Shown piece after piece: positions 4,766 through 9,915 of a DNA stretch of 64,000 bases (position 1 is the stretch's first letter; each line of letters opens with the position of its first letter). The notes under the pieces are model-generated. The model saw only the letters and a list, made by a program, of their open reading frames with translations. It had not been told where the DNA came from and made no database searches. Position numbers and translations under genes: made by a program. The stretch lies in IMG/VR virus record IMGVR_UViG_3300042197_003251, positions 17,018 to 81,017 of that record. The stretch is one strand, 5' to 3'. The DNA comes from a virus.

Positions 4766-5426
4766 AGTCAAAATCAATAGTTATTGGTTTCTGCATGTAT
4801 TGATATTGTTCATCAAGCACTGAGGCGTTTATAAATAATGTTCCATTATCAAAAACAATATTACGCCCACTATGGATATGACCACAAACGTGAATTTTAG
4901 GTTTGATTGTTTTAATACGATTGGTTAAAAGTTGACAACCAAGATTTTCATATGAACCAACAACTCTATCGTTATAACCAAATGCCGGTCCGTGTGTTAC
5001 CAAAATATCAACATCATCAGGTACCATATTCCATTTTTCACTTAACTCATTTCCGTTTCTTGGAAGATTAAATGCCCAACTATGAAATTCTGGTTGCCAA
5101 GGACTACCATAAACTTTTATAAGTTCATCCAAATTTGGTGCAAAAGATAGATAATCGTCCTGAAGATAATTAATCCACTTATAAGAGTTTAAAATTTCTT
5201 CTGTTTCTAAAACTCTATCTTGAAATCCAAAATCGTGATTTCCAGCAATGAAAACTACTGTAGTATAGTTGTTCAAACCATTAAGCCACTTACAAAAGTT
5301 TTTAATTTCGTGTCTATGACCCATTGAAGATATATCACCGGCGTGAATGAGCAAATCTCCACCAGGTAAATCTTTAGTAATCTGATTGTGCTTATTGTGT
5401 GTATCTGATATGAATGTTATTCTCAT
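4731..5426 (-). CDS. Calcineurin-like metallophosphoesterase
   Basis: SDTH, HAGD, AGNHD, THGP, GHIH motifs. Confidence 0.93.
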   Translation of the reverse strand: MRITFISDTHNKHNQITKDLPGGDLLIHAGDISSMGHRHEIKNFCKWLNGLNNYTTVVFIAGNHDFGFQDRVLETEEILNSYKWINYLQDDYLSFAPNLDELIKVYGSPWQPEFHSWAFNLPRNGNELSEKWNMVPDDVDILVTHGPAFGYNDRVVGSYENLGCQLLTNRIKTIKPKIHVCGHIHSGRNIVFDNGTLFINASVLDEQYQYMQKPITIDFDFKTGEWEVIQF

Positions 5427-7334: not shown

Positions 7335-7628
7335 CTAATCTTGGTAAGTAAAATCTATATTAACTGATAGGGGTAAATTCGCAATATCCTCATTACAAGT
7401 AAATCTGCCAGTATCACCGACTATAAAAATAATTTTCATAAGGTCATTATCTTGTAAGTCTGAATCCGTTTTAATGAAAACATTTGTCTTAAATATTCGT
7501 CTATCTTCATCGTCAGACCATAGATAAACACCTTTATCATATTCAATATCAAGAACTTCAGTTTTTTCAAACTGCTTCTTAACTTGTGAATTAATTATTT
7601 TGATATAATTTTTACTTATTTTATTCAT
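7335..7628 (-). CDS. Hypothetical protein (start moved to MNKISK)
   Basis: TATATTTG promoter at 7633-7640 lies inside the longer ORF call. Confidence 0.65.
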   Translation of the reverse strand: MNKISKNYIKIINSQVKKQFEKTEVLDIEYDKGVYLWSDDEDRRIFKTNVFIKTDSDLQDNDLMKIIFIVGDTGRFTCNEDIANLPLSVNIDFTYQD

Positions 7629-7644
7629 AGAGCAAATATACGGC

Positions 7645-7672
7645 AAAAAAAATGGTGAGCCAAAAGCTCACC
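7645..7672 (-). terminator. Terminator of the tRNA/small-RNA transcript
   Basis: GGTGAGC-tttt(g)-GCTCACC followed by a T run on the minus strand. Confidence 0.8.
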
Positions 7673-7680
7673 TTATTTTT

Positions 7681-7780
7681 ATAGTCCATAGTGTTCACAT
7701 TTACCACTACGGAAGATTACGACCAGTCAAGTTGTGATTCTTACTTTATGTTGCCCGCAACAGGTGCAATCTACTTCTAT
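7681..7780 (-). ncRNA. Candidate ~100-nt structured RNA between tRNA and terminator
   Basis: Stems AGATTGC-ACC/GGT-C-GTAATCT, TGTTG/CAACA, AGT-AAG/CTT-G-ACT, TCCGTAGTG/CACTATGGA; loops TCACA and TGTGA are complementary. Confidence 0.55.
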
Positions 7781-7782
7781 AG

Positions 7783-7855
7783 TTGCAACTGAAGGATTCG
7801 AACCTCCGACCTTCAGGTTATGAGCCTGACGAGCTGGCCTCTGCTCTAAGTTGCG
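7783..7855 (-). tRNA. tRNA-Met(CAT), initiator-like (C1:A72 mismatch), CCA not encoded
   Basis: CGCAACT TAGAGCAGAGGCCAGCTCG TCAGG CTCATAA CCTGA AGGTC GGAGG TTCGAAT CCTTC AGTTGCA A; full cloverleaf. Confidence 0.93.
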
Positions 7856-7885
7856 ATGTAATAGTTAAACATTAAATATCTAACA

Positions 7886-7920
7886 ATACAAATATACTAA
7901 TAATTTTCACATTTGTCAAT
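7886..7920 (-). promoter_or_regulatory. Bacteroidota-type promoter for the tRNA
   Basis: TTGACA...TATATTTG on the minus strand matches -33 TTG / -7 TAnnTTTG. Confidence 0.75.
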
Positions 7921-7967
7921 TTTTTTTAAAAATCGGTATTTTACTTTTTTTACGGATATTTATTAAT

Positions 7968-8123
7968 ATGAGACCAAGATTAGACGAAACAAAAAAAAGA
8001 GTTAAAGTATCAATAACTCTTAGTCAAAAAATTAATAATAAATTAGAAGGAGACATAATTAACAAATCAAAATTAATTGAAAAATTATTATCGGATTACT
8101 ATGGTAAAAAAGATTTGCAGTAA
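7968..8123 (+). CDS. Small ribbon-helix-helix-like protein (51 aa, not in ORF track)
   Basis: MRPRLDETKKRVKVSITLSQKINNKLEGDIINKSKLIEKLLSDYY; alternating beta-strand then N-K-S-x-L-I-E helix; overlaps HNH start. Confidence 0.75.
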   Translation: MRPRLDETKKRVKVSITLSQKINNKLEGDIINKSKLIEKLLSDYYGKKDLQ

Positions 8124-8784
8124 ATGTAGTATCGAAAAAAATACTAATGAGTTTCAAAAAAACAAATACTCCAAAGATGGATTCAGAAGTGAGTGCTCTG
8201 AGTGCTCCAAAAAAATAAAGAAACTAAAATCTAAAGAACTTATTAGAGAAGAATCAAAAAGATACAGAGAAAAAAATAGAGAAAAATTAAAGGAAAATTT
8301 CAAAATTTATTATATAAATAATAAGAAAAAAGAAAACGAACGAAGTAAAAAATATAGAGAAAAATTAAAAAACAACAAAGAAAATGCGTTACCAGTAAAA
8401 AAAGAACCGTCAGTTCCTTGGAGGGTGAAAAACAAAAATTTGTTCAATAATAAAAAAAAAGAAAAATATCAAAAAGATATCATCTTTAGGTTATCAACAA
8501 ATCTTAGAAATAGGTTGAATAATTTTCTTAAAACAAAAGGTTATAATAAAAATAGTAAAACTTTTGAAATTATAGGTTGTTCCCCTCAACAACTATTAGA
8601 ACATTTAGAAAACCAGTTTGTACCAGGTATGAGTTGGTCAAATAGAAATGAATGGCATATTGACCATATTATCCCCTTATCTTCAGCTAAAGATGAATCT
8701 GAAATATATAAATTATCTCATTACACAAATTTACAACCGCTATGGAAGGTGGATAATCTAAAAAAGGGTTGTAAGTTAATTTAA
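8101..8784 (+). CDS. HNH homing-type endonuclease with N-terminal Zn finger
   Basis: CSKC...CSEC, WHIDHIIPL, HYTNLQPLW..DNLKK; paralog of 45593-46213. Confidence 0.88.
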   Translation: MVKKICSKCSIEKNTNEFQKNKYSKDGFRSECSECSKKIKKLKSKELIREESKRYREKNREKLKENFKIYYINNKKKENERSKKYREKLKNNKENALPVKKEPSVPWRVKNKNLFNNKKKEKYQKDIIFRLSTNLRNRLNNFLKTKGYNKNSKTFEIIGCSPQQLLEHLENQFVPGMSWSNRNEWHIDHIIPLSSAKDESEIYKLSHYTNLQPLWKVDNLKKGCKLI

Positions 8785-8786
8785 CG

Positions 8787-9640
8787 AAGCCTGAGATTAC
8801 AGCTTTTATTGAGTACCTTTAGAGTCATTATTTTTTCTACTCTTATCCACAAGATTTTGTCTTGTATTACTCATCGCCAATTGGTTAGGCCAATCAATCC
8901 TTGACGATACAACTACTCTCTTACTACTCAGCTCTCTTTGAGAATGCCTTCCCAATTAATCCTTGCGAGATTAGAGGTTTTTCGTAAAAATACAGTTCAA
9001 CTTGGGGTCTCACTATGCTCAGAACATCTCTAAGCTATGTGGGCGACTTCCGTTGTACCGTGATGGACACTTTTCCTTTAATTATTTGTAATAATTTAAG
9101 TTTTGTGTCGTGGATGTGTCAGAGTAGTGGTCCACCGTAAGCTCCGTCTCCTTTTGGGCGACAGAATACTAAACTACTCCGTGAAATATCCCTATTTCCA
9201 TACTCTCAGATTACTTCATAAAGTGACCTTGGTAGGTCATCCTTAGGGGTAGTAGCGACACCACTCGTTCTCTACCTTACCTTTCGGTTTTAAGTACCCT
9301 TTGGTATTGGGACCCGCAATTGTGTAGTTGGAGCTACATTTCTTGCTTGGTTCCTATGGGTTATTCTTGTTGGTGTTCCCACCTCAACCTGACAATCCAC
9401 TTTGCCAAGTCACCTGACCACTTTCCCTACAGTGTTACCCTCGGTACTAAAGGTCTTGCGATATCCCACTTGTGTACTTGAGTTCAAATCCCCTTTCGGG
9501 TTTTTAAACCGCAACCTCCTCAACACGGGGGAAGTCACTTTATCCTACTTTCGTAGTTTATTTAAAGACCATACACGGCCCATTATCGTTTATCAGTTAT
9601 CATTATCCCGAAGGACTACTTTCACTGAATGGATAATCTA
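8787..9640 (-). ncRNA. Large structured non-coding RNA (~850 nt), GOLLD-like
   Basis: No credible ORF; visibly GC-richer than flanks; minus-strand tetraloop hairpins GTCC-TTCG-GGAT (9605-9616), CTAC-GAAA-GTAG (9545-9556), CCC-GAAA-GGG (9491-9500), ACC-GAAA-GGT (9279-9288), AATCTC-GCAA-GGATT (8958-8972), plus stem TGACCT/AGGTCA (9224-9239); near a tRNA in a phage. Confidence 0.72.
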
Positions 9641-9642
9641 AC

Positions 9643-9670
9643 TTTCAAAGAACTTTTCGGACATTTCCGA
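9643..9670 (-). promoter_or_regulatory. boxB-like hairpin plus boxA-like antitermination leader
   Basis: TCGGA-aatg-TCCGA hairpin followed by GTTCTTTGAAA. Confidence 0.55.
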
Positions 9671-9675
9671 TTTCG

Positions 9676-9915
9676 TTTTACAAATTTAAGTCAAATTTTT
9701 CGTTCTGTCAAATTTTTCTTAAACTTTTTTTGAGATTTTGGATTTTTCATCGTTTATGAACCTTCATCTCAAATGTTTTACAAATTTACTATCTTTTCTT
9801 TCGTATGTCAAGTACTTTTGTAATTTTTTTTTAGATTTAACTTCCGAGTATCTTTCATTACCTTTAGGTGTCAAATCTTTTACAAATGTAAGTATAAATA
9901 TTGTCAGAACAAGCA
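9676..9915 (-). promoter_or_regulatory. Three tandem Bacteroidota sigma-70 promoters ~100 bp apart
   Basis: TAAATTTGTAAAAC (~9676-9688 and ~9776-9788), TACATTTGTAAAAG (~9877-9890); TTGACA upstream of the first two, TTG upstream of the third. Confidence 0.75.

What the first reader, a model, noticed from the sequence alone, without database searches (positions are those of the whole stretch)
7681..7780. Compact multi-stem RNA with a predicted kissing loop in the tRNA-fMet 3' trailer
Seen (minus strand): ATAG/CTAT ends; a three-way junction (AGATTGC-ACC/GGT-C-GTAATCT enclosing TGTTG/CAACA and AGT-AAG/CTT-G-ACT); then a 9-bp hairpin TCCGTAGTG/CACTATGGA. Loop TCACA is complementary to loop TGTGA. 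The element fills the space between tRNA and terminator. Known: some phage tRNAs have 3'-trailer ribozymes (theta, HDV-like), but I could not fit the HDV fold here. Inference: an undescribed small RNA or tRNA-processing ribozyme; the tRNA lacks encoded CCA and needs 3' processing.
Basis: partly seen in the sequence, partly recalled or inferred. Interest (0 to 1): 0.7.

Follow-up and report, generated by a model that had tools for sequence, protein, structure and literature searches.

The report
New structured RNA behind phage tRNAs
The 100 bases after this phage's initiator-like tRNA are one copy of a conserved, intricately folded small RNA that giant freshwater phages carry as an optional extra in their tRNA gene rows; it matches no catalogued RNA family and its job is still unknown.

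Summary

One sequence alone is unremarkable: fold z = -1.67, and the 5-nt loop match has about a 2.6% chance. Comparison decides it.
- The element recurs in 32 other IMG/VR contigs and one further metagenome contig, giving 19 distinct sequences.
- 97% of cells pair, and 18 of 40 pairs change on both sides (0 of 500 shuffles). All 9 pairs of the long hairpin do so.
- 45 G·U cells place the RNA on the tRNA's strand.

It always starts 0-5 nt after a tRNA, a called tRNA(CAU) in 15 of 19. A terminator or the next tRNA follows. It is single-copy and optional: 10 relatives carry the same tRNA with the terminator directly behind it. Rfam 15 has no match.

It is not HDV-like or theta. The loop-loop pairing is conserved but shows no covariation.

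Best reading: a new, tRNA-punctuated stable small RNA of GOLLD-carrying jumbo phages. A ribozyme role is untested and less likely. Unchecked earlier notes of this scan describe stem-closed RNA cassettes in other phage tRNA arrays; none resembles this one by sequence.

The parts
7891..7919 (-). Sigma-70-like promoter TTGACA-17-TATATT, 35 nt upstream of the tRNA. It lies inside the inserted RHH-HNH cassette DNA.
   Evidence: 11 of 12 matches. The same promoter region precedes the tRNA-like gene in L015.
7782..7855 (-). tRNA-Met(CAU), initiator-like (C1xA72 mismatch), with no encoded CCA.
   Evidence: ARAGORN. Rfam tRNA at 63 bits. 100% identical over 89 nt to L011.
7680..7781 (-). The whole conserved structured RNA element, 102 nt, model R1 positions 1-102.
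   Evidence: cmsearch at 120 bits, E = 1e-25. Covariation.
7777..7781 (-). P0 5' strand (UAUAG). It pairs with 7680-7684.
   Evidence: Pair 1/103 is GC:10, AU:5, UA:2 across 19 sequences.
7773..7776 (-). J0/1 linker AAGU. AAG is invariant; the last base is U in 17 of 19 and C in 2.
   Evidence: Alignments.
7763..7772 (-). P1/P1b 5' strand (AGAUUGC-ACC). It pairs with 7714-7724.
   Evidence: 5 of 10 pairs change on both sides. Columns 14-15 with 63-64 are mostly unpaired, forming an internal loop.
7749..7762 (-). P2 hairpin UGUUG-CGGG-CAACA.
   Evidence: 3 of 5 pairs change on both sides; 100% of cells pair.
7725..7745 (-). P3 hairpin AGUAAG-AAUCACAA-CUUGACU. Loop L3 carries UCACA at 7733-7737.
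   Evidence: All 6 pairs are invariant in 19 of 19. The G/A at the bulge fits a U-R pair in the alternative register.
7714..7724 (-). P1b/P1 3' strand (GGU-C-GUAAUCU).
7685..7713 (-). P4 hairpin UCCGUAGUG-GUAAAUGUGAA-CACUAUGGA. Loop L4 carries UGUGA at 7695-7699.
   Evidence: 9 of 9 pairs change on both sides; 99.4% of cells pair.
7680..7684 (-). P0 3' strand (CUAUA).
7654..7672 (-). Intrinsic terminator GGUGAGC-UUUUG-GCUCACC followed by a U run. It is homologous to the terminator that follows the tRNA directly in L006, L010 and L012.
7968..8784 (+). Context only: a 51-aa ORF (7968-8123) plus a 235-aa HNH/endonuclease-VII-like ORF (8077-8784). Together they form a roughly 0.9-kb cassette inserted between GOLLD and the tRNA.
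   Evidence: PHROG hit at 5e-22. The insertion is delimited. A DNA contig lacking it joins 7867 to 8783. The same two ORFs occur in L015.
8788..9181 (-). Context only: the conserved 3' domain of a GOLLD RNA. Homology to relatives' GOLLD runs from 9788 to 8770.
   Evidence: Rfam RF02032 at 300 bits. BLAST.

Best explanation
Window 7781..7680 (minus strand) is a member of an uncatalogued family of structured RNAs of about 100 nt, found in GOLLD-carrying freshwater jumbo phages.

Fold:
- A closing stem P0.
- A stalk P1 that ends in a three-way junction bearing P2 and P3.
- A 9-bp hairpin P4 that abuts both P1 and P0.
- An invariant L3 (UCACA) and L4 (UGUGR) that can pair.

Placement: the element occupies a 'tRNA slot'. 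It begins 0-5 nt after a tRNA, usually tRNA(CAU), and is followed by a terminator or by the next tRNA 6-12 nt later.

Proposed mechanism:
1. Here it is transcribed with the tRNA from the promoter at 7919-7891 to the terminator at 7672-7654.
2. I infer that the host's ordinary tRNA-end nucleases free it. An RNase Z-type or RNase E cut would fall behind the CCA-less tRNA. In arrays, RNase P would cut at the next tRNA.
3. I infer that it persists as a compact stable RNA acting in trans on an unknown partner, not as a part the tRNA needs.

It is an optional cassette that recombination adds to or removes from tRNA 3' ends.

Shown: conservation, structure, strand, placement, optionality and single copy.
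Inferred: co-transcription, excision, stability and action in trans.
For: Family size:
- 32 IMG/VR contigs (every one confirmed by the covariance model), plus metagenome contig L028, plus the window.
- 19 distinct sequences in all.

Structure:
- 97.0% of cells pair and 18 of 40 pairs change on both sides (0 of 500 shuffles).
- Double-sided changes by helix: P4 9 of 9, P2 3 of 5, P1 5 of 10, P0 1 of 5.
- RNAalifold on a MAFFT alignment gives the same fold.
- 45 G·U cells (my sum) would be A·C mismatches on the other strand. The RNA is therefore read on the tRNA's strand.

Placement:
- An ARAGORN-called tRNA(CAU) ends 0-5 nt upstream in 15 of 19 distinct members.
- 2 of 19 follow an uncalled tRNA-like sequence that contains CAU.
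- 1 follows tRNA-Ser(UGA) and 1 follows tRNA-Leu(UAA).
- Downstream there is a hairpin terminator (window, L015, L017, L028, L039, L120) or the next tRNA 6-12 nt on. Two members have neither: in L123 the next tRNA is 81 nt on, and L121 has none within 300 nt.

Optional:
- The window-type tRNA lacks the element in 10 of 10 IMG/VR relatives.
- The L017-type tRNA lacks it in L080, and the L015-type lacks it in L060.

Copy number: one copy in each of the three related records that hold it (G006 and G007 complete, G010 71% complete) and none in two other complete genomes. There is one copy in the window's own record.

Signals and occurrence:
- Promoter and terminator are predicted.
- Independent DNA contigs hold the element nearly unchanged: X3 with 4 differences over 392 nt, X4 with 2 over 247 nt, X5 with 0 over 104 nt.
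- One contig from an RNA library (X19, a riverine metatranscriptome) bridges the tRNA and the first 56 nt of the element, with 5 differences and 1 insertion. This is only a weak hint of co-transcription.
Against: - No raw RNA reads were available, so no discrete RNA species, RNA end or abundance is shown. The X19 contig could derive from DNA in the library and it stops inside the element.
- No binding partner or target was found.
- The family is narrow (most members 75-95% alike). Three of the four retrieval patterns fixed parts of the element (fixed P3/L3; one search fixed J0/1, P1b and P2). The invariance of P3 and L3 is therefore partly ascertainment. L4 UGUGR was never fixed by a pattern.
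- The loop-loop pairing has no compensatory change.
- The fold energy of the window copy alone is not exceptional.
- Optional presence also fits a selfish cassette with no benefit to the phage.
Confidence: 0.5

Rival explanations
1. A cis-acting maturation or stability module for the upstream tRNA. The compact fold resembles a tRNA in topology: P0 like an acceptor stem, P4 like a T arm, and L3-L4 like the elbow. It would either serve as an RNase P or RNase Z landmark that leaves a short tRNA trailer, or protect the precursor's 3' end. It would have no role of its own once cut off.
For: - It always starts 0-5 nt after a tRNA end and sits in the slot a tRNA would occupy.
- The upstream tRNAs lack encoded CCA in all contexts seen except L101.
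- The order of P0, the P1 domain, P4 and P0 mirrors acceptor, D/anticodon, T arm and acceptor. This is my own reading.
- Outside group A, the flanks extend P0 by 2-5 A-U pairs.
Against: - The same tRNAs occur without it.
- ARAGORN and the Rfam tRNA model do not recognise it.
- P4 (9 bp, 11-12-nt loop) is unlike a T arm.
- Strong conservation of P3, L3 and L4 suggests a specific interaction rather than a generic block.
Confidence: 0.2
2. A self-cleaving ribozyme of a new class that cuts at or near its own 5' end and so releases the CCA-less tRNA. This would be a functional analogue of theta (HDV-like) ribozymes.
For: - It lies directly behind phage tRNAs, mostly tRNA(CAU).
- Over 70% of tRNA-associated theta ribozymes sit with tRNA-Met, suppressor tRNA or tRNA-Leu, and 4.5% of their tRNAs encode CCA (PMC10879173; passages and section 7 read).
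- Junction and loop nucleotides are invariant.
- The fold is compact, with a possible tertiary loop-loop contact.
Against: - The topology is not HDV-like. The 3'-terminal strand pairs with the very 5' end, upstream of P1, and that pairing covaries. There is no J4/2 to hold a catalytic C.
- No Rfam ribozyme model matches at E <= 10 or E <= 1.
- The linker between the tRNA and P0 varies between 0 and 5 nt, and the first base of P0 varies among U, A and G.
- Identical tRNAs do without it.
- A CCA-adding enzyme domain was found in only 1 of 5 records searched.
Confidence: 0.12
3. A selfish or relic cassette that moves between tRNA 3' ends by recombination, perhaps carried along with homing-endonuclease traffic. 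Its RNA structure would serve its own spread or be a remnant, and it would do nothing for the phage.
For: - Presence and absence vary at the same site behind three tRNA types.
- The window locus is a mosaic with an RHH-HNH cassette inserted 5' of the tRNA.
- The ends are short inverted repeats.
Against: - There is one copy per genome.
- No consistent target-site duplication is visible in the contexts.
- Compensatory changes and G·U tolerance show selection on the RNA fold.
- The HNH cassette accompanies the element only in the window and the L015 group. L017, L028, L039 and the array contexts lack it.
Confidence: 0.12
4. Chance hairpins in an ordinary AT-rich tRNA trailer.
For: - The single-sequence fold has z = -1.67.
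- The loop match has a chance of about 2.6%.
Against: - 19 distinct homologues carry 18 covarying pairs.
- Covariance-model scores are 89-123 bits.
Confidence: 0.01

Closest known systems
Theta ribozymes (minimal HDV-like ribozymes at the 3' end of gut-phage tRNAs; PMC10879173, passages and section 7 read)
   Same: - A structured RNA directly behind phage tRNAs that mostly lack encoded CCA.
- tRNA-Met is a frequent partner.
- Confined to tailed phages.
   Different: - The fold is two nested three-way junctions closed by P0, not a nested double pseudoknot.
- There is no J4/2 catalytic C.
- It is about 100 nt long rather than a minimal HDV-like motif.
- The habitat is freshwater rather than gut.
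- It also sits between tRNAs inside arrays.
- Self-cleavage is untested.
Phage T4 'species 1' and 'species 2' stable RNAs (rnaD/rnaC) in the T4 tRNA gene cluster. This is recalled from memory and was not checked in any call.
   Same: Small stable RNAs of unknown function, co-located and co-processed with phage tRNAs.
   Different: The phage group and host are different.
GOLLD RNA (Rfam RF02032) and ROOL RNA: large ornate phage RNAs near tRNA islands (bioRxiv 10.1101/2024.12.08.627333, passages read)
   Same: - Same genomes and often the same operon: GOLLD-tRNA-element-terminator in L017, L028 and L039.
- The function is unknown.
- Both are associated with tRNA islands.
   Different: - The element is about 100 nt rather than more than 800 nt.
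- It lies outside the GOLLD model (GOLLD ends at 8788 in the window, and 17 nt before the tRNA in relatives).
- It also occurs in tRNA arrays away from GOLLD on the same contigs.
freshwater-1 RNA (Rfam RF02979)
   Same: A small structured RNA of unknown function from freshwater metagenomes. It was found just beyond the same tRNA array in L110.
   Different: It is a different motif of 62 positions, and the element does not match its model.
tRNA-linked small RNAs freed by tRNA-processing enzymes: E. coli 3'ETS-leuZ and MHV68 tRNA-pre-miRNA. Both are recalled from memory and not checked in any call.
   Same: The logic proposed here: an RNA released at no extra cost by RNase Z, P or E cuts that mature the adjoining tRNA.
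   Different: Those are unstructured spacers or simple hairpins. This element is a conserved multi-helix fold.

Membership tests
HDV-like / theta ribozyme | Nested double pseudoknot in the order P1-P2-P3-P3'-P1'-P4-P4'-P2'. The 3'-terminal strand pairs with a segment that lies 3' of the P1 5' strand. | tested here: not met
   The 3'-terminal strand (columns 99-103) pairs with columns 1-5, upstream of P1, and covaries (GC:10, AU:5, UA:2). RNAalifold finds the same arrangement.
HDV-like / theta ribozyme | Catalytic C at the first position of J4/2 (PMC10879173, section 7). | tested here: not met
   The P4 3' strand (column 98) abuts the P0 3' strand (column 99) with no nucleotide between them, so no J4/2 exists.
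HDV-like / theta ribozyme | The cleavage site (G1) lies within +/-5 nt of the tRNA 3' end. | tested here: inconclusive
   The element starts 0-5 nt after the ARAGORN tRNA end, so the position fits. Its first base, however, is G in 10, A in 6 and U in 3 of 19.
HDV-like / theta ribozyme | Self-cleavage activity. | not testable with these tools
   Needs in vitro transcription.
Any Rfam 15 family, including hammerhead, twister, twister-sister, hatchet, pistol and HDV models | A covariance-model match. | tested here: not met
   Nothing on the element at E <= 10 in window 7550-8000 on the correct strand. Nothing at E <= 1 in L104, L116 or L110.
tRNA / tRNA-like structure | Cloverleaf recognised by ARAGORN or by Rfam RF00005. 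| tested here: not met
   Neither tool places a tRNA on the element.
tRNA / tRNA-like structure | An L-shape built from an acceptor/T-arm stack and a D-loop/T-loop elbow. | not testable with these tools
   Only the order of helices and the L3-L4 complementarity resemble this. No 3D model was made.
GOLLD RNA (RF02032) | The element forms part of the GOLLD model or transcript core. | tested here: not met
   The GOLLD hit ends at 8788. In 10 relatives it ends 17-18 nt before the tRNA. In 4 of 5 array-type contigs checked, the element lies elsewhere on the contig than GOLLD; the fifth locus (L074, 1,381 bases) was too short to judge.
MITE-like mobile DNA element | Many copies per genome, terminal inverted repeats and a target-site duplication. 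| tested here: not met
   One copy per genome or record. The 5-nt inverted ends are the covarying RNA stem P0. No consistent duplication appears in the contexts.
Riboswitch (aptamer plus terminator expression platform) | The aptamer's closing strand competes with the terminator stem, and a regulated gene lies downstream. | tested here: not met
   A 7-nt A-rich spacer separates P0 from the terminator. The terminators differ between members, and in arrays the next feature is a tRNA.

The most novel reading that the evidence does not exclude
The element is a new class of functional RNA tied to tRNA biology in jumbo phages. It could be a previously unknown self-cleaving ribozyme that trims CCA-less tRNAs. 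It could instead be a tRNA-shaped decoy or adaptor, with an L3-L4 'elbow', that engages a host tRNA-targeting defence nuclease or a tRNA-processing or modifying enzyme during infection.
Probability: 0.15. Interest if true: 0.85.

Novelty: new variant of a known kind. Interest (0 to 1): 0.58.

Why it matters
Phage tRNA islands are turning out to hold many unexplained RNAs, among them GOLLD, ROOL and freshwater-1. This adds a compact family of about 100 nt that is well supported by covariation, has a defined architecture and sits in a strict genomic position directly behind tRNAs, mostly tRNA(CAU), in GOLLD-carrying jumbo phages.

It is small enough for immediate biochemistry: cleavage assays, RNase P and RNase Z processing, chemical probing and structure determination.

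Natural genomes with and without the element exist. Two complete genomes of about 322 kb from one sample differ in carrying it (G006 has it; G001 lacks it). That offers a ready comparison for function.

If the element proves to be a ribozyme or a tRNA mimic, it would extend the theta-ribozyme theme of phages equipping their tRNAs with RNA devices beyond the gut.

Tried and rejected
Searches that found nothing:
- Exact 29-mer of the P4 hairpin in IMG/VR: 0 hits. Relatives differ there, as expected for a covarying stem.
- blastn (distant mode) of 7600-7960 against 50,697 phage records matched only the tRNA part.
- The downstream 98-aa ORF has no relatives in IMG/VR, so it gave no way to relatives.
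- Metagenome scan 1 (tRNA end plus CTATAG): 0 hits.
- A pattern with an exact P1 strand and an exact P2 stem: 0 hits.
- Two genome-contig scans of 185,579 prokaryote species: 0 hits. This gives no sign of prophage copies at exact-pattern sensitivity, and no host clue.
- Search for extra copies in five related records found only an 18-nt chance match.
- Look-up of earlier scan notes by sequence: nothing.

Other results set aside:
- Metagenome scan 2 gave 8 loci. Four of them (L022, L024, L025, L029) are unrelated chance matches, and I dropped them.
- A CCA-adding enzyme domain (PF01743) was found in 1 of 5 records. No association can be claimed, and three of the five records are incomplete or lack it.
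- Read laying: all runs were contigs, so RNA ends, strand and level could not be read. Parts without cover mean nothing.

Readings considered and rejected:
- HDV or theta fold, by topology.
- Degenerate tRNA.
- Riboswitch.
- MITE.
- Part of GOLLD.
- RNase III 'clamp' stem. P0 is only 5-10 bp, too short by what I recall of RNase III substrates; this was not tested.

Limits on the literature check:
- I could not see the supplements of PMC10690425, which lists 8,495 unnamed candidate RNAs from IMG/VR. This motif may be listed there without a name. Only passages of the main text were read.
- The original GOLLD paper (Weinberg et al. 2009) was not read and is recalled only.
- Searches behind 'not in print': plus Rfam.

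Full report
WHAT IS IN THE WINDOW

The window is part of an 81-kb IMG/VR virus record that CheckV estimates to be 28% complete. Its G+C content is about 30%. The features below lie on the minus strand, read 5' to 3':
- A sigma-70-like promoter, TTGACA-17-TATATT, at 7919-7891.
- A tRNA-Met(CAU) at 7855-7782. It has the C1xA72 mismatch of bacterial initiators, and no CCA follows its discriminator.
- The flagged stretch of about 100 nt.
- A 7-nt A-rich spacer.
- A clean intrinsic terminator at 7672-7654.

On its own the sequence is not remarkable. Its energy is -24.8 kcal/mol with z = -1.67, and 14 of 200 shuffles fold as well. A 5-bp Watson-Crick match between random loops of 8 and 11 nt turns up in about 2.6% of simulations. 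Rfam 15 finds only the tRNA in this region, even at E <= 10.

THE ELEMENT IS AN INSERT RELATIVE TO CLOSE RELATIVES

A pattern for the tRNA's 3' half found 11 IMG/VR loci. Ten of them (L002-L006, L008-L012) carry the same tRNA, 94-100% identical over 89 nt. In all ten, a terminator hairpin begins about 9 nt after the tRNA. In the same ten, a GOLLD RNA (RF02032, 315-325 bits) ends 17-18 nt before the tRNA. The common layout is therefore GOLLD, tRNA(CAU), terminator.

The window differs from that layout in two ways.
- A cassette of about 0.9 kb lies between GOLLD (Rfam hit 9181-8788) and the tRNA. It holds a 51-aa ORF and an HNH/endonuclease-VII-like ORF on the opposite strand, and it brings the promoter. 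About 14 nt of the GOLLD-tRNA linker are duplicated, imperfectly, at its two ends. One DNA contig in run X5 joins 7867 to 8783, which is the form without the cassette.
- The 102-nt element lies between the tRNA and the terminator.

HOMOLOGUES

A 21-mer from the middle hairpin found 8 IMG/VR loci. The whole element is conserved in them, behind three other tRNA sequences.

Further patterns were then used:
- One for the metagenome collection. It gave 8 loci, of which 4 were unrelated and dropped.
- One for the GOLLD 3' end, which matched 85 stretches.
- One for the element's 5' block that fixes neither P3 nor L4, which gave 24 loci.
- A looser P3 pattern, which gave 32 loci.

I built a covariance model, R1, from the first five distinct sequences. 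It confirmed all 32 IMG/VR contigs listed at 89-123 bits. One of these, L021, is cut off at the contig end. With metagenome contig L028 and the window, the family has 19 distinct sequences.

The two exact-pattern scans of one genome per prokaryote species found nothing. DNA contigs from three other freshwater samples (two further studies) hold the window's version almost unchanged.

STRUCTURE

Controls in which the 3' partners are slid pair at 26-46%. Eighteen of 40 pairs change on both sides, against a shuffle mean of 8.0, and 0 of 500 shuffles reach the observed number.

By helix:
- P4: 9 of 9 pairs covary.
- P2: 3 of 5.
- P1/P1b: 5 of 10. Two inner positions are mostly unpaired and form an internal loop.
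- P0: 1 of 5. That one pair takes three forms (GC:10, AU:5, UA:2).
- P3: invariant.
- The five proposed L3-L4 pairs: four invariant, and one U·G (10 sequences) or U-A (9 sequences).

An alignment fitted to a model leans towards that model. I therefore also ran RNAalifold on a plain MAFFT alignment. It predicts the same helices, with 15 of 33 pairs compensatory, and a slightly different register for the P3 bulge.

I count 45 G·U cells. These would be A·C mismatches on the other strand, so the selected structure is RNA read in the tRNA's direction.

Outside the window's subgroup, the flanking A-runs and U-runs extend P0 by 2-5 further pairs.

The fold amounts to two nested three-way junctions:
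- An outer junction of P0, P1 and P4, with a 4-nt J0/1 (AAGU or AAGC) and no linker on the other two sides.
- An inner junction of P1b, P2 and P3, with J2/3 = UAA.
- Two invariant loops that could kiss.

The kiss is plausible and conserved, but it is not demonstrated.

GENOMIC GRAMMAR

The element starts 0-5 nt after the end of a tRNA. Among the 19 distinct members:
- 15 follow an ARAGORN-called tRNA(CAU), of roughly a dozen different sequences by eye. Some are initiator-like, some elongator-like, and one (L014) has a long variable arm.
- 2 follow an uncalled tRNA-like sequence that contains CAU (L015, L120).
- 1 follows tRNA-Ser(UGA) (L121).
- 1 follows tRNA-Leu(UAA) (L125).

There are two downstream settings.
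- Setting A: an A-rich spacer and a hairpin terminator. This applies to the window, L015, L017, L028 and L039; L120 also has a terminator. In L017, L028 and L039 the unit is GOLLD-tRNA-element-terminator.
- Setting B: a short U-rich spacer and the next tRNA 6-12 nt later (Glu, Ala, Thr and others). Here the element fills a slot inside a tRNA array. Four of five such contigs checked carry an Rfam-level GOLLD elsewhere. The fifth locus was too short to judge.

Two members, L121 and L123, fit neither setting: in L123 the next tRNA is 81 nt on, and L121 has none within 300 nt.

The element is single-copy in the three related records that hold it and absent from two other complete genomes.

It is also optional behind at least three tRNA types:
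- The window type (10 loci without it).
- The L017 type (L080 lacks it).
- The L015 type (L060 lacks it).

WHAT IT IS NOT

- Not HDV-like or theta. That fold needs the 3'-terminal strand to pair downstream of the P1 5' strand, and it needs a J4/2 carrying the catalytic C (PMC10879173, section 7). Here the 3' end pairs with the very 5' end, and P4 abuts P0 with no linker.
- Not a match to any Rfam ribozyme or other Rfam family.
- Not a tRNA by ARAGORN or by Rfam.
- Not part of the GOLLD model.
- Not a riboswitch. There is no overlap with the terminator, the terminators vary, and in arrays a tRNA lies downstream.
- Not a multi-copy MITE.

MECHANISM

Shown: a selected RNA fold, on the tRNA's strand, inside the same predicted transcription unit, in a tRNA slot, and optional.

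Inferred: it is transcribed with the tRNA and set free by the cuts that mature the neighbouring tRNAs. These would be an RNase Z-type or RNase E cut behind a CCA-less tRNA and an RNase P cut at the next tRNA. It would then persist as a compact small RNA that acts in trans. I recall the T4 species 1 and 2 RNAs as the classical parallel, but I did not check this.

The only expression hint is one contig of a riverine RNA library. It bridges the tRNA and the first 56 nt of a variant element, and this is weak evidence.

I give this reading 0.5. The rivals are:
- A cis-acting processing or stability module with tRNA-like topology: 0.2.
- A new self-cleaving ribozyme: 0.12.
- A selfish cassette: 0.12.
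- Chance: 0.01.

NOVELTY

No Rfam 15 family matches. Three literature searches turned up no description of it.

A 2023 survey predicted 8,495 unnamed candidate RNAs from IMG/VR (PMC10690425; passages read).

Earlier notes of this scan, which are AI-made and unchecked, describe stem-closed small-RNA cassettes in tRNA arrays of other phages. None resembles this element by sequence. Notes on this same genome agree that an antisense RHH-HNH cassette separates GOLLD from the tRNA, which I confirmed independently.

VERDICT

The 'tRNA-processing ribozyme' half is not supported, though it is not excluded.

Noticed in passing
window 8770-9788 (minus strand); Rfam hit 8788-9181: A GOLLD RNA (RF02032, 300 bits). 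In 10 relatives it ends 17-18 nt before the same tRNA, so the usual unit is GOLLD-tRNA(CAU)-terminator. In the window it is cut off from its tRNA and terminator by an inserted cassette.
   Followed up: partly
window 7868-8782; ORFs 7968-8123 (+) and 8077-8784 (+): A cassette of about 0.9 kb holding a 51-aa ORF and an overlapping HNH/endonuclease-VII-like gene, inserted antisense between GOLLD and the tRNA. About 14 nt of the linker are duplicated imperfectly at both ends. The cassette supplies the tRNA's new promoter. The same two ORFs sit at the same place in L015 (321-kb genome). A DNA contig in run X5 shows the uninterrupted form.
   Followed up: partly
L110 456-518 (minus strand): A freshwater-1 RNA (RF02979, 76 bits) lies just beyond the tRNA-Met / element / tRNA-Glu / tRNA-Tyr array. 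It is another small RNA of unknown function in the same tRNA island.
   Followed up: no
L008 2012-2389, L011 10522-10899, L012 1327-1704, L015 5469-5846, L039 7826-8203: These phage contigs encode a full-length tmRNA (RF00023, 90-119 bits) within a few kb of the GOLLD-tRNA unit.
   Followed up: no
L015 about 4825-4897 (also L016, L018, L027): The tRNA-like gene before the element has a CAU anticodon loop but an aberrant T loop, and ARAGORN does not call it. Its relative in L060 has a normal T loop and no element. It may be a decaying tRNA.
   Followed up: no
L014 about 8405-8494; L120 upstream of 5701: tRNA(CAU) genes with a long variable arm (82 nt in L014). This is unusual for Met/Ile2-type tRNAs.
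   Followed up: no
L110, the roughly 110 nt upstream of the element (894 onward, minus strand): The element is preceded by a sequence that ends like a tRNA T arm and acceptor strand, but no tRNA is called there. It could be an interrupted or degenerate tRNA.
   Followed up: no
G001 (L010) and G006 (L015), contigs 000001 and 000002 of one sample: Two complete genomes of about 322 kb from one sample both carry GOLLD. Only G006 has the HNH cassette and the element, which makes them a natural with/without pair.
   Followed up: partly
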